NCBI RefSeq assembly: GCF_003334385.1
Contig: NZ_QOWN01000017.1
Reading direction: 5' to 3' (one strand)
DNA from: Escherichia coli
GTDB taxonomy: Bacteria > Pseudomonadota > Gammaproteobacteria > Enterobacterales > Enterobacteriaceae
Length of the DNA stretch: 64,000 nucleotides
Made by a program: the position numbers and the translations under genes. Positions 6,466-17,042 of the stretch are shown piece by piece (position 1 is the stretch's first letter; the number at the start of each line of letters is the position of its first letter). The notes below the pieces were generated by a model. The model worked only from the letters and a program-made list of their open reading frames with translations, ran no database searches and was not told the DNA's origin.

Positions 6466-8157
6466 ATGAAAACGCTGCTGATTATTGACGCTAATCTCGG
6501 TCAGGCACGCGCCTATATGGCGAAGACCCTGCTGGGCGCGGCGGCGCGAAAAGCAAAACTGGAAATCATCGACAATCCGAACGACGCTGAAATGGCGATT
6601 GTTCTCGGTGATTCCATCCCGAACGACAGCGCGCTGAACGGTAAAAATGTCTGGCTGGGCGATATTTCCCGGGCAGTTGCGCACCCTGAGCTGTTCCTGA
6701 GTGAAGCCAAAGGCCATGCGAAACCTTACACTGCGCCGGTCGCTGCGACAGCACCAGTTGCCGCCAGCGGTCCGAAACGCGTAGTTGCGGTGACTGCTTG
6801 CCCGACTGGCGTAGCACACACCTTTATGGCGGCTGAAGCCATTGAAACCGAAGCGAAAAAACGTGGCTGGTGGGTGAAAGTTGAAACCCGTGGTTCTGTT
6901 GGCGCGGGTAATGCAATCACTCCCGAAGAAGTCGCAGCAGCGGATCTGGTGATTGTGGCGGCAGATATCGAAGTGGATCTGGCGAAATTTGCTGGTAAAC
7001 CGATGTATCGTACCTCTACCGGTCTGGCGCTGAAGAAAACCGCGCAGGAACTGGATAAAGCGGTTGCTGAAGCAACGCCGTATGAACCGGCGGGCAAAGC
7101 TCAAACGGCGACCACTGAAAGTAAGAAAGAGAGTGCAGGCGCATACCGTCACTTGCTGACGGGCGTTTCTTACATGCTGCCGATGGTCGTTGCAGGTGGT
7201 CTGTGTATCGCGCTTTCTTTTGCTTTTGGTATCGAAGCGTTTAAAGAGCCGGGTACGTTGGCTGCGGCGCTGATGCAGATTGGTGGTGGTTCAGCCTTTG
7301 CGCTGATGGTGCCGGTACTGGCAGGTTATATTGCCTTTTCCATTGCCGATCGTCCGGGCCTCACTCCGGGTCTGATTGGCGGTATGCTGGCGGTCAGCAC
7401 CGGTTCTGGCTTCATTGGTGGTATTATTGCGGGCTTCCTGGCTGGTTACATTGCGAAGTTAATCAGTACGCAATTGAAACTGCCACAGAGTATGGAGGCG
7501 CTGAAACCGATCCTGATCATTCCGCTAATTTCCAGTCTGGTGGTCGGTCTGGCGATGATCTACCTGATCGGTAAACCAGTTGCTGGCATTCTCGAAGGGC
7601 TGACTCACTGGCTGCAGACCATGGGGACTGCGAATGCGGTTCTGCTGGGGGCGATCCTCGGTGGCATGATGTGTACTGACATGGGCGGTCCGGTAAACAA
7701 AGCAGCGTACGCATTCGGTGTGGGTCTGCTGAGTACTCAAACCTATGGCCCGATGGCGGCGATTATGGCGGCAGGTATGGTGCCACCGCTGGCAATGGGT
7801 CTGGCAACAATGGTGGCGCGTCGCAAATTCGACAAAGCGCAGCAGGAAGGTGGCAAAGCCGCTCTGGTATTGGGACTGTGCTTCATTTCGGAAGGTGCAA
7901 TTCCGTTTGCTGCTCGTGATCCGATGCGTGTGCTGCCGTGCTGTATCGTGGGTGGGGCGCTGACTGGCGCAATCTCAATGGCGATTGGTGCGAAACTGAT
8001 GGCACCGCACGGTGGTCTGTTTGTTCTGCTGATCCCTGGCGCTATTACGCCGGTATTGGGTTACCTGGTAGCAATTATTGCCGGTACGCTGGTGGCGGGT
8101 TTGGCCTATGCCTTCCTGAAACGTCCGGAAGTGGACGCAGTAGCGAAAGCAGCGTAA
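6466..8157 (+). CDS. fruA: PTS fructose-specific EIIB'BC component
   Basis: 563-aa ORF, duplicated IIB domains plus polytopic IIC. Confidence 0.95.
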   Translation: MKTLLIIDANLGQARAYMAKTLLGAAARKAKLEIIDNPNDAEMAIVLGDSIPNDSALNGKNVWLGDISRAVAHPELFLSEAKGHAKPYTAPVAATAPVAASGPKRVVAVTACPTGVAHTFMAAEAIETEAKKRGWWVKVETRGSVGAGNAITPEEVAAADLVIVAADIEVDLAKFAGKPMYRTSTGLALKKTAQELDKAVAEATPYEPAGKAQTATTESKKESAGAYRHLLTGVSYMLPMVVAGGLCIALSFAFGIEAFKEPGTLAAALMQIGGGSAFALMVPVLAGYIAFSIADRPGLTPGLIGGMLAVSTGSGFIGGIIAGFLAGYIAKLISTQLKLPQSMEALKPILIIPLISSLVVGLAMIYLIGKPVAGILEGLTHWLQTMGTANAVLLGAILGGMMCTDMGGPVNKAAYAFGVGLLSTQTYGPMAAIMAAGMVPPLAMGLATMVARRKFDKAQQEGGKAALVLGLCFISEGAIPFAARDPMRVLPCCIVGGALTGAISMAIGAKLMAPHGGLFVLLIPGAITPVLGYLVAIIAGTLVAGLAYAFLKRPEVDAVAKAA

Positions 8158-8314
8158 TAAAAGGTGTGTTACAGGGCAGAAATTTCCTGTCCTGTAACAT
8201 TTGATGAGCGCAAAGAGAATGACCGGTTTGTGAATGTAATTTTATGAATTTAAATGGTTTTATCTTTCAGTAGAAACTTCAAACGTTCATCAAACACTCA
8301 GGTTATTTCCTCAA

Positions 8315-8341
8315 GGGCAGATTATTTTCTGCCCTTTTTTA
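8315..8341 (+). terminator. Rho-independent terminator downstream of fruA
   Basis: GGGCAGA-loop-TCTGCCC followed by TTTTTT; an imperfect 13-bp inverted repeat at 8167..8199 precedes it. Confidence 0.6.
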
Positions 8342-8579
8342 TTGTTCTGTTCTGTGCATCCCGTCACAAATTCCTCGCTTTTGTAATTCAGGCATTTAAT
8401 CGCATTTTGTGAGCCTGCTCAAATCTGCCCATTTTGCCTCTCTGGCGGTAATTTACTTTACGTAAAACATGCATACTATGAGCACATGTTTAAATATGAA
8501 CACATGTTTAAACCGTCTTTGCAGTATCTATATTCTTGTGGATTGACAGGGTTGGTAATTTTTTACCAGAGGACGTGCT

Positions 8580-9521
8580 ATGCGCGAAAAGGATTATGTC
8601 GTAATTATAGGTTCGGCGAATATTGATGTCGCCGGATATTCACATGAATCATTAAATTATGCGGATTCAAATCCAGGTAAAATAAAATTTACGCCTGGTG
8701 GAGTAGGGCGCAATATTGCACAAAACCTGGCGTTGCTGGGTAACAAAGCCTGGCTACTGAGCGCCGTAGGCAGTGATTTTTATGGTCAATCGCTGCTAAC
8801 GCAAACCAATCAATCTGGCGTTTATGTCGATAAATGCCTGATTGTGCCGGGAGAAAATACGTCGAGTTATTTATCATTACTCGATAATACCGGTGAAATG
8901 CTGGTTGCTATAAATGACATGAATATTAGCAACGCTATTACAGCTGAATATCTCGCACAGCACGGTGAATTTATTCAGAGGGCAAAGGTCATTGTCGCGG
9001 ACTGTAATATCAGTGAAGAGGCACTGGCATGGATTCTGGATAATGCCGCCAACGTACCCGTATTTGTCGATCCGGTTTCGGCATGGAAATGTGTCAAAGT
9101 GCGCGACCGTCTAAATCAGATCCACACTCTCAAGCCAAACCGCCTTGAAGCGGAAACCCTGAGTGGGATTGCGCTGTCAGGGCGTGAAGATGTGGCAAAA
9201 GTTGCTGCCTGGTTCCATCAACATGGCCTGAACCGACTGGTATTGAGCATGGGCGGCGACGGCGTTTATTACAGCGATATCAGCGGTGAAAGTGGCTGGT
9301 CTGCGCCGATCAAAACCAATGTTATTAATGTTACCGGAGCGGGCGATGCCATGATGGCGGGACTTGCTTCGTGTTGGGTAGACGGAATGCCGTTTGCCGA
9401 ATCTGTTCGTTTCGCACAGGGATGTTCGTCAATGGCGCTCTCCTGTGAATACACCAATAACCCCGATTTATCGATTGCCAACGTTATATCGTTAGTGGAG
9501 AACGCAGAATGTCTGAATTAA
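8580..9521 (+). CDS. psuK: Pseudouridine kinase (PfkB family)
   Basis: 313-aa ORF; PfkB motifs (GGVGRN, TGAGDAM). Confidence 0.9.
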   Translation: MREKDYVVIIGSANIDVAGYSHESLNYADSNPGKIKFTPGGVGRNIAQNLALLGNKAWLLSAVGSDFYGQSLLTQTNQSGVYVDKCLIVPGENTSSYLSLLDNTGEMLVAINDMNISNAITAEYLAQHGEFIQRAKVIVADCNISEEALAWILDNAANVPVFVDPVSAWKCVKVRDRLNQIHTLKPNRLEAETLSGIALSGREDVAKVAAWFHQHGLNRLVLSMGGDGVYYSDISGESGWSAPIKTNVINVTGAGDAMMAGLASCWVDGMPFAESVRFAQGCSSMALSCEYTNNPDLSIANVISLVENAECLN

Positions 9522-10453
9522 AAATTTCCCCTGAATTATTACAAATTTCCCCGGAAGTGCAGGACGCTTTAAAAAACAAAAAACCGGTTGTGGCGCTGGA
9601 ATCGACCATTATTTCTCACGGGATGCCGTTCCCACAAAATGCCCAGACCGCAATTGAAGTTGAAGAAACTATTCGTAAACAGGGCGCTGTACCTGCCACG
9701 ATCGCCATTATTGGCGGCGTGATGAAAGTGGGGTTAAGCAAAGAAGAAATTGAATTACTGGGTCGTGAAGGGCATAACGTGACCAAAGTTAGTCGTCGCG
9801 ATTTACCTTTTGTTGTTGCCGCCGGAAAAAATGGCGCAACCACTGTGGCTTCAACGATGATTATTGCGGCGCTTGCCGGAATTAAAGTATTTGCCACCGG
9901 GGGAATTGGTGGTGTGCATCGCGGGGCGGAACATACCTTCGATATTTCTGCCGATTTGCAAGAACTGGCAAATACTAATGTCACCGTTGTTTGTGCCGGG
10001 GCGAAATCTATTCTCGATTTAGGATTAACCACTGAGTATTTAGAAACCTTCGGTGTGCCGTTAATTGGCTATCAGACTAAAGCGCTGCCTGCGTTTTTCT
10101 GCCGCACCAGCCCGTTTGACGTCAGCATTCGTCTCGACAGCGCCAGCGAAATTGCCCGTGCAATGGCGGTGAAATGGCAAAGCGGTCTGAACGGTGGCCT
10201 CGTGGTAGCGAACCCGATCCCGGAACAGTTTGCTATGCCGGAACACACTATCAATGCGGCGATCGATCAGGCGGTAGCTGAAGCTGAAGCTGAAGCTCAG
10301 GGAGTCATTGGTAAAGAAAGTACGCCATTCCTGCTGGCGCGCGTTGCTGAACTGACCGGCGGTGACAGCCTGAAATCCAACATCCAGCTGGTGTTCAACA
10401 ACGCCATTCTGGCGAGCGAAATTGCCAAAGAATATCAGCGTCTCGCGGGTTAA
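9509..10453 (+). CDS. psuG: Pseudouridine-5'-phosphate glycosidase
   Basis: 314-aa ORF; overlaps psuK by 13 nt; contains (GCTGAA)3 repeat encoding AEAEAEAQ. Confidence 0.9.
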   Translation: MSELKISPELLQISPEVQDALKNKKPVVALESTIISHGMPFPQNAQTAIEVEETIRKQGAVPATIAIIGGVMKVGLSKEEIELLGREGHNVTKVSRRDLPFVVAAGKNGATTVASTMIIAALAGIKVFATGGIGGVHRGAEHTFDISADLQELANTNVTVVCAGAKSILDLGLTTEYLETFGVPLIGYQTKALPAFFCRTSPFDVSIRLDSASEIARAMAVKWQSGLNGGLVVANPIPEQFAMPEHTINAAIDQAVAEAEAEAQGVIGKESTPFLLARVAELTGGDSLKSNIQLVFNNAILASEIAKEYQRLAG

Positions 10454-11867: not shown

Positions 11868-12527
11868 TTACTGCATCATCCCGGAGAATTTATTCTCCGG
11901 GTCCATCTCCAGCGCCAGTCCTGACAACTGCTTTCTGTTTTTAATGAGATACCCTTTCTTGCTTTTAATTAATAAACCGTCGTGAATGAACTGCGCGAGA
12001 ACATATAAAAGATGTCGATAAGAAACGCCTAAATACTCTGCCGCTTGCGTATGCTTTTCGTGATAAAGATCACCTTCCTGCGAGAGTAATATAAATGCTG
12101 CCAGGCGATTCACTAACGGAAATGATTGATTCTGAGTTAAAGAAACAATATTACGATAATTTTTATGACTTAAGGTGACGCAGAGTTTTCGTAAAAATAG
12201 CGTGTCGTTTAATAACAGCGGACGGTAATGTTTCATAGGGAGCGCAAGGCACCAACACTCTTCAATAGCCTGCACCGCACGCGGTTCATGGTCTTTATCG
12301 ATTAACTCAATCTCGCCAATAAAACAGGGGGCGGCAAAGAAATCGATCAGCGACACGCGACCATTAGCTAGCGTGGCGTAAAGCCTGGCGCGGCCTCGCG
12401 TCAGGTAAAACAGCCAGGACGGCTGTTGCCCTTCCTGCACAATGTAGTCACGCGCTAAAAAATGAAACAGCCGCGTATCGGCTGAAACATCCGTTAAAAA
12501 GCAATCCTTAAACGCGGATTCACTCAT
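11868..12527 (-). CDS. yeiL: CRP/FNR-family regulator YeiL (219 aa)
   Basis: Track ORF 11868..12566; start trimmed to ATG (MSESAFKDC...); cNMP-binding fold plus C-terminal HTH. Confidence 0.85.
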
Positions 12528-12695
12528 CAATTGCTGCTTAAGATCATTATTGTGGATTTCTTTCACGATGTTTATCCGCTATGAGATTTCTCATATTTAG
12601 CATACGTACGCTGTTGTTAAGATTCAATCATCGGCCCGGTCGAATTTTCTTTGCTGTAGAAAAAATAACGCAACTGGAAACAGAGGAAATAAACA

Positions 12696-13637
12696 ATGGA
12701 AAAGAGAAAAATTATTCTGGATTGTGAGCCGGGTCATGATGATGCTATTGCTATAATGATGGCGGCGAAACATCCGGCAATAGATTTATTAGGCATCACT
12801 ATTGTAGCGGGTAATCAGACGCTTGATAAAACATTAATTAATGGCCTGAATGTTTGCCAGAAACTGGAGATTAATGTTCCGGTTTATGCGGGGATGCCGC
12901 AGCCCATTATGCGTCAACAAATCGTTGCCGATAATATTCACGGTGAAACCGGACTGGATGGCCCGGTATTCGAGCCGCTGACCCGCCAGGCAGAAAGCAC
13001 TCATGCGGTGAAATATATCATTGATACCCTGATGGCAAGCGATGGCGATATCACTCTGGTGCCGGTTGGTCCGCTTTCAAATATCGCGGTGGCAATGCGT
13101 ATGCAACCCGCGATCCTGCCCAAAATCCGTGAAATTGTGCTAATGGGCGGCGCTTACGGTACAGGCAACTTCACGCCATCTGCCGAGTTCAACATCTTTG
13201 CCGACCCGGAAGCCGCACGCGTAGTGTTCACCTCCGGCGTTCCATTAGTGATGATGGGCCTCGATCTCACCAACCAGACCGTTTGCACCCCGGACGTGAT
13301 TGCTCGGATGGAAAGGGCAGGCGGCCCCGCCGGAGAGCTGTTCAGCGACATCATGAACTTCACTCTCAAAACGCAGTTCGAAAACTACGGCCTTGCTGGC
13401 GGCCCGGTGCACGACGCCACCTGCATCGGTTATCTGATTAACCCTGATGGCATTAAAACCCAGGAGATGTACGTCGAAGTGGACGTCAACAGTGGCCCTT
13501 GCTATGGGCGTACCGTCTGCGACGAGCTGGGCGTTCTTGGCAAGCCCGCCAATACCAAAGTCGGCATCACTATTGATACAGACTGGTTCTGGGGATTAGT
13601 CGAAGAGTGCGTGCGCGGCTACATCAAAACCCATTAA
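12696..13637 (+). CDS. rihB: Pyrimidine-specific ribonucleoside hydrolase RihB
   Basis: 313-aa ORF; IU-nucleoside hydrolase N-terminal DCEPGHDDA motif. Confidence 0.93.
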
Positions 13638-13736
13638 GTGTTGATAACAAGCCGGGCCGGTATCGCAAGATGCAGGCCTGGCTATTTCTGATGGGCAGAA
13701 AGCCGTCGCCCAATATGACATGAAGAGATAATCACT

Positions 13737-14987
13737 ATGGATGTCATGAGAAGTGTTCTGGGAATGGTGGTATTGCTGACGATTGCGTTTTTACTGTCAG
13801 TAAACAAGAAGAAGATCAGCCTGCGTACCGTTGGCGCGGCGTTAGTGTTACAGGTCGTGATTGGCGGCATTATGCTTTGGTTACCGCTAGGGCGTTGGGT
13901 CGCTGAAAAAGTCGCTTTTGGCGTGCATAAAGTGATGGCGTACAGCGACGCGGGTAGCGCATTTATCTTCGGTTCTCTGGTCGGACCGAAAATGGATACC
14001 TTATTTGATGGTGCAGGATTTATCTTTGGTTTCAGGGTGTTACCGGCAATTATCTTCGTCACCGCGCTGGTGAGTATTCTCTACTACATCGGTGTGATGG
14101 GGATTTTAATTCGAATTCTCGGCGGTATCTTCCAGAAAGCATTAAATATCAGCAAGATCGAGTCATTCGTCGCGGTCACCACCATTTTCCTCGGGCAAAA
14201 CGAAATTCCGGCAATCGTCAAACCCTTTATCGATCGTCTGAATCGCAATGAATTATTTACAGCGATTTGTAGTGGCATGGCCTCGATTGCTGGTTCGACA
14301 ATGATTGGTTACGCCGCACTGGGCGTGCCTGTGGAATATCTGCTGGCGGCATCATTAATGGCGATCCCTGGCGGGATCTTGTTTGCCCGCCTGTTAAGCC
14401 CGGCAACGGAATCTTCGCAGGTTTCCTTTAATAACCTCTCTTTCACCGAAACACCGCCAAAAAGCATTATTGAAGCCGCTGCGACAGGGGCAATGACCGG
14501 GCTGAAAATCGCCGCAGGTGTGGCAACAGTGGTGATGGCATTTGTTGCAATAATTGCGTTGATTAACGGTATTATCGGCGGCGTTGGTGGCTGGTTTGGT
14601 TTTGAACATGCCTCGCTGGAGTCCATTTTAGGTTACCTGCTGGCTCCACTGGCGTGGGTGATGGGTGTGGACTGGAGTGATGCGAATCTTGCCGGGAGTT
14701 TGATTGGACAGAAACTGGCAATAAATGAATTTGTCGCTTATCTCAATTTCTCACCCTATCTGCAAACGGCTGGCACTCTCGATGCTAAAACTGTGGCGAT
14801 TATTTCCTTCGCGTTGTGCGGTTTCGCTAACTTTGGTTCTATCGGGGTGGTGGTGGGGGCGTTTTCTGCGGTTGCGCCACACCGTGCGCCGGAAATCGCC
14901 CAGCTTGGTTTACGGGCGCTGGCGGCGGCGACGCTTTCCAACTTGATGAGTGCGACCATTGCCGGGTTCTTTATTGGTTTAGCTTGA
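13737..14987 (+). CDS. nupX: Nucleoside permease NupX (CNT family)
   Basis: 416-aa ORF, paralogous to psuT over its full length. Confidence 0.93.
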   Translation: MDVMRSVLGMVVLLTIAFLLSVNKKKISLRTVGAALVLQVVIGGIMLWLPLGRWVAEKVAFGVHKVMAYSDAGSAFIFGSLVGPKMDTLFDGAGFIFGFRVLPAIIFVTALVSILYYIGVMGILIRILGGIFQKALNISKIESFVAVTTIFLGQNEIPAIVKPFIDRLNRNELFTAICSGMASIAGSTMIGYAALGVPVEYLLAASLMAIPGGILFARLLSPATESSQVSFNNLSFTETPPKSIIEAAATGAMTGLKIAAGVATVVMAFVAIIALINGIIGGVGGWFGFEHASLESILGYLLAPLAWVMGVDWSDANLAGSLIGQKLAINEFVAYLNFSPYLQTAGTLDAKTVAIISFALCGFANFGSIGVVVGAFSAVAPHRAPEIAQLGLRALAAATLSNLMSATIAGFFIGLA

Positions 14988-15093: not shown

Positions 15094-16182
15094 TTACACC
15101 ATTGGCACTAATGAAAGCGCGTTATCGGCAGACAGGGTAGGGTTGTTTAAGCTGCCGCTGGCGCGCGAAATTGCCGCGCAGGCTACCGCAAAACGGGCGC
15201 TGTCGCGGAAACTGTATCCTTCAAGAAAGCTATATACCAGGCCCGCCATAAAACCATCGTCAGCACCAAAACTGTCTACTGTCGTATGCGCTGGCGCGGT
15301 CAGCAAAAATTGTTCTCCATCCTTTTCGCTGCAATAAACTGACTCATCGGGCAAATAAACAAACAGTTGCTGAACACCTTGCTGATGCAATGCATTCACT
15401 GCGGTATTACGGTCAGCATCGCTGGTGATCGCCTGTCCCCATAAAATTTCCAGCTCCGGTAAAGTGGGTTTCAGGGTGTGAATATGCGCCAGCCAGTGTT
15501 TGATTTTGCCCGCTTTGAATTCTGAAACGGTATCGACAAACACCGGGATTTCATCAGCGAGGGTAAAGACCCATTCCAGCGCCTCGGCTGTCAGGTTGCA
15601 ATCAGCCAGTACCACGCCCGCATGACGAAGTAAATCGCGCGACCCGTTCAGTAGTTGCGGTGTCAACTGTTCCAGCAGATGGGTATCGTTAATCGCCAGC
15701 ACGGTTTGATCGTCTCGATTGGCAATTGCCAGATACGTCGATGTGCTTTGACCATGCAAACGAACGCAGCCGGAGACATTCACGCCGGCACGGCGCGTTT
15801 CTTCCAGGAGCATTTCGCCATAAAAGTCATCGCCAATCACTGAAAGCAAATGGACGTCACGGCCTAACAGCGCCAGATTGTGGGCGATGTTGCGTCCCAC
15901 GCCGCCCGCTGAGCAATGAATTGTACCGGGATGAGAAGCCGATTGCGGGTAACGGATATCCGCCATCCCGCGAATATCCATATTGATTGTCCCCACCACT
16001 ACGCAGTATTCCTGCTCGGTGAGAATGTAACCTTTGCCTTTAATCCGGCCTTTGCGCATTAAATCCATAATATGCGCCGCAACGCGCGAACGGCTGATTT
16101 GCAGCATGTCCGCAATTTCGTTCTGCTGAATCAGCGGGTTACGCCGTAAAATTGCAAGGATCTCCTTTTCCCGGTTATTCAT
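15094..16182 (-). CDS. yeiI: YeiI, N-terminal HTH fused to PfkB-family kinase
   Basis: 362-aa ORF; kinase domain paralogous to psuK. Confidence 0.9.
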   Translation of the reverse strand: MNNREKEILAILRRNPLIQQNEIADMLQISRSRVAAHIMDLMRKGRIKGKGYILTEQEYCVVVGTINMDIRGMADIRYPQSASHPGTIHCSAGGVGRNIAHNLALLGRDVHLLSVIGDDFYGEMLLEETRRAGVNVSGCVRLHGQSTSTYLAIANRDDQTVLAINDTHLLEQLTPQLLNGSRDLLRHAGVVLADCNLTAEALEWVFTLADEIPVFVDTVSEFKAGKIKHWLAHIHTLKPTLPELEILWGQAITSDADRNTAVNALHQQGVQQLFVYLPDESVYCSEKDGEQFLLTAPAHTTVDSFGADDGFMAGLVYSFLEGYSFRDSARFAVACAAISRASGSLNNPTLSADNALSLVPMV

Positions 16183-16184
16183 CT

Positions 16185-17042
16185 TCAGGCTACCGCTTTT
16201 TCAGTTTGTTGCGCTTTCAGCCAGGCGATCTCTTCTGCCCAGATATCCGGGTTGATGGTTTCGAGGATCAGCGGAATGCCGTCGAAACGGTCGTCCTGCA
16301 TGATCCAGCGGAACGCATCATGACCGATATTGCCTTCACCGAGGCTATGATGGCGGTCAACGCGGCTGCCAAAGGTGCTTTTCGCATCGTTAAGGTGCAT
16401 CCCGCGCAGATACTTAAAGCCGACAGTACGGGCAAAATCCGCGAATGTTTTCTCGCATTCGGCTGGAGTACGCAAATCATACCCGGCAGCGAAAGCATGG
16501 CAGGTATCAATGCAGACGCCGACGCGGGATTTATCTTCCACGCCGTCGATAATCGCCGCGAGATGTTCGAATTTAAACCCTAAGTTACTGCCCTGACCGG
16601 CGGTGTTTTCTATCACCGCTGTCACACCTTGAGTTTTATCCAGCGCAATGTTGATGGATTCGGCAATACGCGCAAGGCAATCCTCTTCTGAAATCTGCAT
16701 CAGATGGCTGCCAGGGTGGAAGTTGAGCAAAGAAAGCCCCAGCTGTTCGCAACGCTGCATTTCATCTATAAAGGCATCGCGCGATTTTTCCAGAGCTTCA
16801 GTGACCGGATGTCCGAGGTTAATCAGATAACTGTCGTGGGGAAGAATTTGCGCCGATGTGTAGTGATATTTTTCACAGGCGGCTTTGAATTCATCGATGG
16901 TTTGCGTCGTGAGCGGTGCGGCACGCCACTGACGTTGGTTTTTGGTGAACAAGGCAAACGCGGTTGCGTCGATTTCGGCGGCGCGAATTGCGGCATTTGC
17001 CAGACCGCCAGCAGCACTAACGTGCGCTCCAATGTATTTCAT
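16185..17042 (-). CDS. nfo: Endonuclease IV (AP endonuclease)
   Basis: 285-aa ORF matching Nfo from start [13 protein letters not shown]. Confidence 0.95.

What the first reader, a model, noticed from the sequence alone, without database searches (positions are those of the whole stretch)
8477..8512. Tandem 18-bp direct repeat upstream of the psuK operon
TATGAGCACATGTTTAAA and TATGAACACATGTTTAAA are directly adjacent about 70 bp upstream of the psuK start. Each contains the palindrome AACATGTT. Such a tandem pair looks like a binding site for a dimeric regulator; candidates are the neighbouring CRP/FNR-type YeiL or kinase-HTH YeiI, both of unresolved function.
Basis: seen in the sequence. Interest (0 to 1): 0.4.

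Follow-up and report, generated by a model that had tools for sequence, protein, structure and literature searches.

The report
Paired repressor sites at psuK promoter
The two adjacent 18-bp repeats are real and form a conserved pair of palindromic protein-binding sites on the start of the pseudouridine-utilisation operon; they are most likely the operator of the uncharacterised neighbouring regulator YeiI, not YeiL.

Summary
The quoted palindrome AACATGTT is absent; the real symmetry is AACA-NN-TGTT. The repeat is not a recent accident. Two such palindromes 18 bp apart sit at the same place in psuK promoters of Escherichia, Citrobacter, Buttiauxella, Raoultella, Pluralibacter and Enterobacter. 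A recurrent adaptive SNP from published mouse-gut and stationary-phase evolution maps to window 8454 and turns TTTACT into TTGACT. That fixes the promoter as -35 at 8452-8457 and -10 at 8474-8479, so the two sites cover about -6 to +24, a repressor position. The motif persists in genomes without yeiL in the locus. It recurs upstream of (wHTH-PfkB)-psuG operons in seven distant proteobacterial genera and in three Firmicute-like metagenome contigs found by a motif-first scan. YeiI is the E. coli wHTH-PfkB protein. It keeps the pseudouridine-binding residues but has a degenerate catalytic motif (GADD instead of GAGD), whereas PsuK kept the enzyme function. Best reading: a twin operator for YeiI, a pseudouridine-sensing repressor, beside CRP-dependent activation. 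All of this is inferred; none was tested by binding. I found no publication on it.

The parts
8477..8494 (+). Repeat unit 1, TATGAGCACATGTTTAAA. It begins inside the -10 hexamer.
8495..8512 (+). Repeat unit 2, TATGAACACATGTTTAAA.
8480..8491 (.). Operator O1, spaced palindrome GAGCA-CA-TGTTT (7 of 8 to AACANNTGTT). It covers about -6 to +6 of the inferred promoter.
   Evidence: Conserved at this place in all enteric orthologues.
8498..8509 (.). Operator O2, spaced palindrome GAACA-CA-TGTTT (8 of 8). It covers about +13 to +24 and lies 18 bp centre-to-centre from O1.
   Evidence: A rare natural variant GAATA exists.
8452..8457 (+). Inferred -35 hexamer TTTACT. Base 8454 is the site of the recurrent adaptive T>G change (published as A>C at NC_000913.2 2257444), which gives TTGACT.
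   Evidence: SNP tables. Coordinate offset 1978 calibrated on four srlR mutations and mapped to the window. The block ATTTAC is invariant in 12 species.
8474..8479 (+). Inferred -10 hexamer TACTAT, 16 bp after the -35. The predicted start is near 8486; this is inferred, with no TSS data.
   Evidence: Conserved block in alignment A1. The spacing follows from the SNP-defined -35.
8408..8423 (.). Proximal CRP-like site TGTGAGCCTGCTCAAA (9 of 10), centred about -70.5.
   Evidence: TTGTGA...TCA.ATCT is invariant in alignment A1.
8353..8368 (.). Distal CRP-like site TGTGCATCCCGTCACA (9 of 10), 55 bp upstream of the proximal one.
   Evidence: A counterpart scoring 8-9 of 10 lies 52-53 bp upstream of the proximal site in eight of the nine other enteric promoters scanned, all but Buttiauxella.
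8552..8569 (+). Hairpin TTGGTAA-TTTT-TTACCAG abutting the Shine-Dalgarno GAGGA in the psuK leader.
   Evidence: Folds. One pair changes on both sides (T:A in E. coli, C:G in other genera).
8580..9521 (+). psuK, pseudouridine kinase without an HTH; first gene of psuK-psuG-psuT (through 11797).
15094..16182 (-). yeiI, wHTH (residues 1-48) plus a PfkB domain with GADD in place of GAGD; the proposed cognate regulator.

Best explanation
The tandem repeat is a pair of 12-bp palindromic operators (consensus RAACA-NN-TGTTY, centres 18 bp apart). They lie on the -10 and the initially transcribed region of the psuKGT promoter. Each palindrome is proposed to bind a dimer of YeiI, a winged-helix DNA-binding domain fused to a pseudouridine-kinase-like PfkB domain and encoded in the same gene cluster, about 3.3 kb beyond psuT in E. 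coli and directly after psuT in genomes without the yeiL block. Bound YeiI would block RNA polymerase. Pseudouridine, or its 5'-phosphate, binding the kinase-like domain would release it. The promoter itself is weak (TTTACT-16-TACTAT) and probably needs CRP at about -70.5. In many other bacteria one wHTH-PfkB protein is both the kinase and the autoregulator and heads the operon. In the Escherichia/Citrobacter/Enterobacter lineage the gene was duplicated: PsuK kept catalysis and lost the HTH, YeiI kept the HTH and the ligand pocket but lost the catalytic motif. Shown here: the sequence features, their conservation and the genomic associations. Inferred: the promoter and TSS, YeiI as the binder, repression, and the inducer.
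For: (1) Conservation. O1 and O2 keep their arms and 18-bp spacing in 11 enteric promoters of six genera while the central NN and the flanks vary. The stretch is invariant in six diverse E. coli strains whose flanks carry SNPs. It is 100% identical in at least 3825 genome records. (2) Position. The recurrent A>C SNP maps to 8454 and improves a conserved -35, which puts the sites at about -6 to +24. In metagenome locus L078 a clear TTGACA-17-TATACT promoter is followed directly by the two sites and then AGGAGG-GTG. (3) Link to the wHTH-PfkB protein. yeiI flanks psuKGT in all enteric loci examined, with or without yeiL. In Yersinia, Serratia, Pasteurella, Shewanella, Aliivibrio, Xenorhabdus and a Burkholderiaceae genome the wHTH-PfkB gene is the first gene of a psuG operon. 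Six of those seven upstream regions hold a perfect AACANNTGTT. The chance of that is 0.003-0.016 per region. The three genera fetched after the pattern was fixed all hit. Four of the seven have a second site 18-19 bp away, though the Burkholderiaceae partner scores only 5 of 8. (4) Reverse test. Of 120 metagenome stretches carrying a perfect dual motif, 3 have it 0-130 bp upstream of a wHTH-PfkB gene next to psuG. No psu gene occurs elsewhere in those 774 kb. (5) Protein. The HTH is 57-72% identical between YeiI and the distant homologues, more than their kinase domains (38-48%). Pseudouridine-contact residues S30, N143 and K170 (PMC9061257) are invariant. GAGD is GADD only in the split-type YeiI proteins. 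The Yersinia kinase domain is nearer to PsuK (60%) than to YeiI (48%). In L141 an independent split shows the same pattern: the PsuK-like protein keeps GAGD and the HTH paralogue has REQD.
Against: There is no binding, footprint, TSS or yeiI-mutant expression data. The searchable literature has none, and YeiI is listed as uncharacterised. In the gut-evolution tables I read, selection hit only the single -35 base and never yeiI, whereas frlR, srlR, dgoR and kdgR were repeatedly inactivated there. So loss of YeiI may not de-repress usefully, or YeiI may not be the limiting repressor. Yersinia, Serratia and Xenorhabdus show only one site, 240-280 bp upstream. The dual motif is not exclusive. In metagenomes it also sits next to TetR-family regulators and Y-family polymerase genes, where it looks like a LexA Cheo box. 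No second site was found in the E. coli cluster, so yeiI, which lies 2 bp after nfo, shows no sign of autoregulation. The strong RecA-dependence of PsuG/PsuK levels under ciprofloxacin is not explained.
Confidence: 0.65

Rival explanations
1. The sites bind a transcription factor encoded elsewhere that recognises AACA-NN-TGTT-like palindromes, for example a TetR-type or other local regulator. YeiI would have a different role.
For: Similar dual motifs sit next to TetR-family regulator genes in 7 metagenome loci. yeiI was never hit in the gut-evolution tables read. The half-site resembles the KdgR half-site AAACA (from memory).
Against: The motif travels with wHTH-PfkB/psuG across Gamma- and Betaproteobacteria and Firmicute-like contigs, where the only regulator gene shared by these loci is the wHTH-PfkB itself. 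KdgR sites have a 1-bp centre, ARG boxes are 21 bp apart, and RutR and CytR consensus sequences do not fit (from memory, not tested).
Confidence: 0.13
2. The repeats are the binding site of YeiL, the CRP/FNR-family regulator encoded after psuT.
For: yeiL lies in the same cluster in E. coli. CRP/FNR-family proteins bind spaced palindromes as dimers, and the PrfA box TTAACA-NN-TGTTAA has the same layout (from memory).
Against: Buttiauxella gaviniae, two Citrobacter genomes, Pluralibacter and Enterobacter sichuanensis have psuKGT followed directly by yeiI, with no yeiL-rihB-nupX, yet both sites are conserved. A Citrobacter with an identical PsuK carries the block as an insertion (L017), so yeiL travels with rihB-nupX. 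No cNMP-binding protein gene lies within 5-7 kb of the distant operons that carry the motif. I could not check whether yeiL sits elsewhere in those genomes.
Confidence: 0.07
3. The repeat acts as RNA. In the K-12-type allele the 3' half of unit 1 pairs with the 5' half of unit 2, giving an 11-bp stem at the 5' end of the psuK mRNA that affects stability or translation.
For: The predicted fold has GUUUAAAUAUG pairing with CAUGUUUAAAC. The whole leader scores -29.7 kcal/mol, z = -2.46.
Against: Two adjacent similar palindromes can always pair, so the stem follows automatically. The outer half-sites, which the hairpin does not need, are just as conserved: A102/C104/A105 and T126/G127/T129 are invariant. 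The left half of O1 lies at or before the inferred start. In distant taxa each palindrome is complete on its own with unrelated spacers. No Rfam family matches.
Confidence: 0.05
4. The repeat is a neutral slipped-strand duplication, or merely supplies promoter hexamers (the second TTTAAA as a -35 for TATATT at 8529-8534), with no regulator involved.
For: The consensus scan reports TTTAAA-16-TATATT at 8507-8534 with 9 of 12 matches. The near-identity of the units (17 of 18) exists only in the K-12-type haplotype. Outgroups and the other E. coli haplotype show 12-14 of 18.
Against: The two-site layout predates the genus split. The scanned promoter is not conserved outside the E. coli K-12-type haplotype, and the region yielded no more promoter-like hits than shuffles (2 against 2.2). 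The adaptive SNP defines a different, conserved promoter.
Confidence: 0.04

Closest known systems
ROK-family repressors (NagC, Mlc, XylR) and their operators
   Same: A DNA-binding HTH is fused to a sugar-kinase fold that serves as the ligand sensor. Family members range from true kinases to pure repressors. The operators are palindromes overlapping catabolic promoters that also use CRP. (Established knowledge; the comparison is by analogy.)
   Different: The sensor here is a PfkB (ribokinase-like) fold, not the ROK/ASKHA fold. The HTH is a short winged helix (Pfam HTH_24). The motif and the 18-bp twin arrangement differ. No YeiI-family member has been tested.
Bifunctional enzyme-repressors BirA and NadR
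   Same: An N-terminal HTH is fused to an enzyme of the pathway it regulates. The one-gene forms (Yersinia, Pasteurella, Shewanella and others) keep an intact GAGD, so they could be both kinase and autoregulator.
   Different: BirA uses its reaction product as a corepressor of a biosynthetic operon. Here the operon is catabolic, so the ligand should act as an inducer. In E. coli the two roles appear split between PsuK and YeiI.
E. coli nucleoside-catabolism promoters controlled by CytR/DeoR with tandem CRP sites (deoP2, cdd, udp)
   Same: It is a nucleoside-utilisation operon with a weak promoter. Two CRP-like sites lie 52-55 bp apart, the spacing typical of CytR-regulated promoters (from memory).
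   Different: I saw no conserved CytR octamer between the CRP-like sites in alignment A1. The conserved operators lie downstream of the -10, not between the CRP sites. The CRP sites sit at about -70 and -125, not -40 and -93.
LexA 'Cheo box' of Gram-positive bacteria (CGAACNNNNGTTCG)
   Same: The core reads the same: GAAC-N4-GTTY. Some metagenome hits of the dual motif lie next to Y-family polymerase genes. PsuG/PsuK protein levels are RecA-dependent under ciprofloxacin (PMC11039860).
   Different: E. coli LexA recognises CTGT-N8-ACAG. No such box scoring above 6 of 8 is in the promoter region, and the one 6-of-8 match at 8352 overlaps the distal CRP-like site. The resemblance is most likely coincidental in E. 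coli.

Membership tests
Operator of a YeiI-family (wHTH-PfkB) regulator (proposed here, not an established family) | A spaced palindrome AACA-NN-TGTT, usually as a pair 18-19 bp apart, in the promoter or leader of a psuK/psuG operon | tested here: met
   E. coli O1 scores 7 of 8 and O2 8 of 8, 18 bp apart. The layout recurs in 15 of 18 promoters from 16 genera, with the Burkholderiaceae partner site weak at 5 of 8, and in 3 metagenome loci.
Operator of a YeiI-family (wHTH-PfkB) regulator (proposed here, not an established family) | A wHTH-PfkB gene is genomically linked to the operon carrying the motif | tested here: met
   yeiI is at 15094-16182 in the window. Linkage holds in every locus fetched.
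Operator of a YeiI-family (wHTH-PfkB) regulator (proposed here, not an established family) | The protein physically binds the site, and binding is relieved by pseudouridine or its phosphate | not testable with these tools
   Needs EMSA, footprinting or ChIP. Nothing was found in the literature.
CRP/FNR-family (YeiL) binding site | The site co-occurs with the regulator gene across genomes | tested here: not met
   The sites are conserved in loci lacking yeiL and in distant operons with no cNMP-binding neighbour. Whole genomes were not searched for yeiL elsewhere.
CRP binding site (TGTGA-N6-TCACA) | A match to the consensus within the repeat itself | tested here: not met
   The best match overlapping the repeat is 7 of 10 (8489). 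The 9-of-10 matches lie upstream at 8353 and 8408.
Sigma-70 promoter with a class I CRP site | -35 and -10 hexamers at 16-18 bp spacing and a CRP site near -61.5 or -71.5 | tested here: inconclusive
   TTTACT-16-TACTAT scores 8 of 12, below the scan threshold. It is conserved and is improved to 9 of 12 by the adaptive SNP. The CRP-like centre falls at about -70.5 only if the TSS is 8486, for which there is no TSS data.
E. coli LexA SOS box | CTGT-N8-ACAG | tested here: not met
   No match to the 20-mer consensus with up to 3 mismatches in the window. Nothing scores above 6 of 8 in 8300-8600.
Known RNA family (riboswitch or leader) | A match to an Rfam covariance model | tested here: not met
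   The only hit is a chance lncRNA match at E = 0.51 on the other strand.

The most novel reading that the evidence does not exclude
wHTH-PfkB proteins of the YeiI family are an old, cross-phylum class of pseudouridine-responsive one-component regulators. In their single-gene form they are at once the pseudouridine kinase and the autorepressor of the psuG operon, binding twin AACA-NN-TGTT operators. The fusion has been split at least twice independently (Escherichia/Citrobacter/Enterobacter, and a Firmicute-like lineage) into a pure enzyme and a catalytically dead sensor-repressor. On this reading E. coli YeiI is the missing regulator of pseudouridine catabolism, a pathway under repeated positive selection in the mammalian gut.
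Probability: 0.55. Interest if true: 0.65.

Novelty: new variant of a known kind. Interest (0 to 1): 0.55.

Why it matters
YeiI is one of the remaining uncharacterised predicted transcription factors of E. coli K-12, and I found no described regulator for the pseudouridine operon. This analysis gives a specific, cheap test. YeiI should footprint 8480-8509, and pseudouridine or its phosphate should release it. It also explains in molecular terms a mutation reported repeatedly in independent evolution experiments without a mechanism: psuK/fruA A>C is a -35 up-mutation of a conserved weak promoter. Finally, it offers a clean natural example of a bifunctional enzyme-repressor splitting into an enzyme and a sensor. 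Engineers who delete or overexpress psuK and psuG for pseudouridine production would gain a handle on native regulation and possibly a pseudouridine biosensor.

Tried and rejected
- **Other copies.** I looked for the 18-mer or its 12-bp core in the window and found none beyond chance. A scan of the psu-yei cluster for AACANNTGTT found only intragenic 7-of-8 hits plus one intergenic 7-of-8 hit at 8196 downstream of fruA. There was no site before yeiI/nfo, yeiL, rihB or nupX.
- **Scanned promoter.** TTTAAA-16-TATATT was rejected as the main promoter because it is not conserved outside the K-12-type haplotype.
- **Rfam.** Nothing matched.
- **LexA and CRP.** Neither has a site inside the repeat.
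- **ArgR, KdgR, RutR, PurR, CytR.** Rejected from remembered consensus sequences because spacing or half-sites do not fit. These were not formal tests.
- **Literature.** Searches for psuK promoter, YeiL/YeiC, YeiI, RutR+psuK, pseudouridine kinase + regulator + operator, psuG + repressor and PsuR found no regulator study. Preumont 2008 and Breitman 1970 are not in the held library.
- **PDB.** No solved structure covers the YeiI HTH.
- **ABC-transporter genes.** The ones next to some metagenome motif hits are only about 31% identical to the transporter of the Burkholderiaceae psu locus, so I did not pursue them.
- **Supplementary Data 16.** The psuK qPCR in the SNP mutant (PMC9509342) is truncated in the held copy, so I could not read the direction or size of the expression change.

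Full report
**What is in the sequence.** The window is E. coli K-12-like DNA. It reads fruB-fruK-fruA (ending at 8157), a 422-bp spacer, psuK (8580-9521), psuG, psuT, yeiL (minus strand), rihB, nupX, then yeiI and nfo (minus strand). The spacer is 100% identical to K-12 strains. The two 18-mers lie at 8477-8494 and 8495-8512 and differ only at position 6, G against A. The motif occurs nowhere else in the window and once per E. coli genome. The sequence is CACATGTT. The real symmetry is a spaced palindrome, GAGCA-CA-TGTTT and GAACA-CA-TGTTT.

**Where the promoter is.** Literature searches showed that the psuK/fruA spacer is a recurrent target of selection. The same A>C change at position 2257444 arose in most mice in several gut-colonisation experiments (PMC7518454, PMC9509342, PMC6731689, PMC10340439). 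A psuKp A>C allele arose in three long-term stationary-phase populations (PMC7858067).

Those tables use NC_000913.2 coordinates. I calibrated the offset to NC_000913.3 as 1978 using four published srlR mutations; all four reproduce the stated base and amino-acid change. This assumes no indel between the two versions from 2.26 to 2.83 Mb. The SNP then maps to window base 8454, T>G on the psuK strand. It turns AATTTACTTT into AATTGACTTT, so the hexamer TTTACT becomes TTGACT.

Sixteen bp downstream lies TACTAT (8474-8479). Both hexamers sit in blocks that are invariant or nearly so in 12 species. The wild-type pair scores 8 of 12, which is why the consensus scan (threshold 9) missed it. The mutant scores 9 of 12. 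The start site is therefore inferred near 8486. No TSS data were available.

A CRP-like site (TGTGAGCCTGCTCAAA, 9 of 10) is centred about 70.5 bp upstream of that point and is conserved. A second one lies 55 bp further upstream.

**What the repeat is.** Upstream regions of psuK orthologues came from Escherichia species, E. albertii, Citrobacter, Buttiauxella, Raoultella, Pluralibacter and Enterobacter. All have two palindromes of the form RAACA-NN-TGTTY at the same place with centres 18 bp apart. The arms are conserved. The central dinucleotide (CA, TG, TA, CG, GA) and the spacers are not.

So the tandem arrangement is ancient. In outgroups the two 18-bp units match at only 12 of 18 positions. 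About 1200 complete E. coli genomes carry a second spacer haplotype resembling E. albertii, with 14 of 18. The 17-of-18 identity is specific to the K-12-type haplotype, found in about 4200 E. coli genomes and in Escherichia sp. E1V33 and E. whittamii. That suggests local homogenisation, though a few point changes under binding constraint would also produce it.

Within the K-12-type haplotype the 42-bp stretch is 100% identical in at least 3825 records. It is invariant in strains whose flanks carry SNPs. Rare variants exist in the spacer, in the left arm of O2 and in the -10. Relative to the inferred start, O1 covers about -6 to +6 and O2 about +13 to +24. That is a repressor position.

**Who binds.** In Buttiauxella gaviniae, two Citrobacter genomes, Pluralibacter and Enterobacter sichuanensis, psuT is followed directly by yeiI. 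The yeiL-rihB-nupX block is absent, yet both operators are conserved. Another Citrobacter with an identical PsuK has the block inserted (L017). So yeiL travels with rihB-nupX, not with psuKGT.

YeiI has a winged-helix domain (HTH_24, E = 2e-10, residues 1-48) and a PfkB domain. Its homologues are widespread. In Yersinia, Serratia, Pasteurella, Shewanella, Aliivibrio, Xenorhabdus and a Burkholderiaceae genome, the wHTH-PfkB gene is the first gene of an operon with psuG, usually followed by a nucleoside transporter. There is no separate psuK and no CRP/FNR-type neighbour.

I derived the palindrome from the enteric alignment and then looked upstream of these operons. Six of the seven regions contain a perfect AACANNTGTT, and Serratia has 7 of 8 at the position matching Yersinia. 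Pasteurella, Shewanella, Aliivibrio and Burkholderiaceae have a second site 18-19 bp away, though the Burkholderiaceae partner is weak at 5 of 8. A perfect match has probability 0.003-0.016 per 350-bp region by shuffling. The three loci fetched after the core pattern was fixed all hit, a joint chance of about 2e-7.

**Reverse test.** I scanned metagenome contigs for a perfect dual motif (AACANNTGTTY-N6-7-RAACANNTGTT) with no reference to genes. In all three the motif lies 0-130 bp upstream of a wHTH-PfkB gene adjacent to psuG. These are low-GC, Firmicute-like sequences only 27-45% identical to the E. coli proteins.

L078 shows TTGACA-17-TATACT, then the two sites, then AGGAGG and the start codon. 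This is the same logic as in E. coli. The motif is not exclusive, however. Other hits cluster next to TetR-family regulators and Y-family polymerase genes, where it resembles the Gram-positive LexA box. Most of the rest are probably chance.

**The protein story.** The one-gene proteins keep the PfkB catalytic motif GAGD. E. coli, Enterobacter and Pluralibacter YeiI have GADD and have lost the preceding glycine-rich segment. The three residues shown crystallographically to contact pseudouridine in PsuK (S30, N143, K170; PMC9061257) are invariant in all.

The Yersinia kinase domain is closer to E. coli PsuK (60%) than to YeiI (48%). It scores higher on the PsuK model than on the YeiI model. Its HTH is 70% identical to that of YeiI. 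Across the family the HTH is better conserved than YeiI's own kinase-like domain, which fits a conserved DNA target.

Metagenome locus L141 shows an independent split. A PsuK-like protein with GAGD, together with psuG, is transcribed divergently from a wHTH-PfkB paralogue in which the motif reads REQD. The operators lie between the two. The simplest reading is duplication and subfunctionalisation: PsuK is the enzyme and YeiI the sensor-repressor.

**Caveats.** Nothing here shows binding. The start site is inferred. The gut experiments never hit yeiI in the tables I could read, although repressor knock-outs are the usual adaptive route for other sugar operons in the same studies. This fits if pseudouridine is present in the gut, the repressor is already off and the weak -35 is limiting. 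It could equally mean YeiI is not a simple repressor.

In the K-12-type allele the two units can pair as RNA into an 11-bp stem. Conservation of the outer half-sites argues against RNA as the primary function. PsuG and PsuK proteins are strongly RecA-dependent under ciprofloxacin in several clinical strains (PMC11039860). I found no E. coli-type LexA box and cannot explain this result.

**Verdict.** The regulator-site interpretation is well supported. YeiI is the strongly favoured partner and YeiL is unlikely. The element is an ordinary kind of thing, a twin operator on a catabolic promoter, attached to an uncharacterised and rather elegant kind of regulator. I found no published description, but curated regulon databases could not be consulted.

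Noticed in passing
window 8454: The psuK/fruA A>C mutation reported as recurrently selected in mouse-gut and long-term stationary-phase evolution maps here. It converts the conserved -35 TTTACT to TTGACT. The papers I read give no mechanism beyond calling it the promoter region.
   Followed up: yes
window 8353-8368 and 8408-8423: Two CRP-like sites (9 of 10 each) lie 55 bp apart upstream of the psuK promoter. A similar pair 52-53 bp apart occurs in E. albertii, Citrobacter, Raoultella, Pluralibacter and Enterobacter. The spacing recalls CytR-regulated nucleoside promoters, but I saw no conserved CytR motif between them.
   Followed up: partly
window 8552-8569: A hairpin TTGGTAA-TTTT-TTACCAG ends at the first base of the psuK Shine-Dalgarno. 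It is conserved across genera, with one pair changed on both sides (T:A to C:G) and a variable loop length, which suggests an RNA structure in the leader.
   Followed up: partly
window 8158-8579; L033 1075-1528: E. coli has two deeply diverged haplotypes of the fruA-psuK spacer. The K-12 type is in about 4200 complete genomes. An E. albertii-like type with REP-like sequence is in about 1200. Only the K-12 type has the near-perfect 18-bp repeat. psuK is annotated as a pseudogene (frameshift, internal stop or truncation) in three of the six sampled strains (L029, L032, L033).
   Followed up: partly
window 8171-8199 and 8313-8345: Two hairpins follow fruA: a stem right after the stop codon and a terminator-like stem with a T-run about 150 bp later. 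About 110 bp lies between them and is conserved among K-12-type strains. This could be a long fruA 3' UTR or a 3'-derived small RNA. There was no Rfam match.
   Followed up: no
window 9517-9556: A 21-bp tandem repeat (TRF score 66) spans the psuK stop / psuG start overlap. It encodes a duplicated heptapeptide at the PsuG N-terminus (ELKISPE / LLQISPE).
   Followed up: partly
window 11868-14987; L015 vs L017: yeiL-rihB-nupX behaves as an insertable block between psuT and yeiI. It is present in E. coli and one Citrobacter, and absent in other Citrobacter, Buttiauxella, Pluralibacter and Enterobacter. YeiL is therefore more likely the regulator of the divergent rihB-nupX genes.
   Followed up: partly
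psuK/psuG (window 8580-10453); PMC11039860: PsuG and PsuK are among the proteins most reduced (log2 fold change down to -6) in recA deletion mutants under ciprofloxacin in several E. coli strains, alongside classic SOS proteins. No E. coli LexA box was found in the promoter, though the operators resemble the Gram-positive LexA box GAAC-N4-GTTC.
   Followed up: partly
L021 6750-6767, L022 about 6746-6763, L026 4713-4730: In Yersinia, Serratia and Xenorhabdus the wHTH-PfkB-psuG operon has a single extended palindrome (ACCAAACA-NN-TGTTTGGT type) 240-280 bp upstream of the start codon rather than a twin site near it. This implies a long leader or a different promoter layout.
   Followed up: no
metagenome loci L041, L047, L056, L090, L097, L131, L134; L073, L109, L151: The same dual AACANNTGTT motif lies just upstream of TetR-family regulator genes (7 loci) and Y-family DNA polymerase genes (3 loci) in unrelated metagenome contigs. 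Other regulator families therefore use near-identical twin palindromes.
   Followed up: partly
window 16182-16185: yeiI starts 2 bp after the nfo stop codon on the minus strand, so it is probably co-transcribed with the endonuclease IV gene. The same nfo-yeiI adjacency holds in Citrobacter, Buttiauxella, Pluralibacter and Enterobacter.
   Followed up: no
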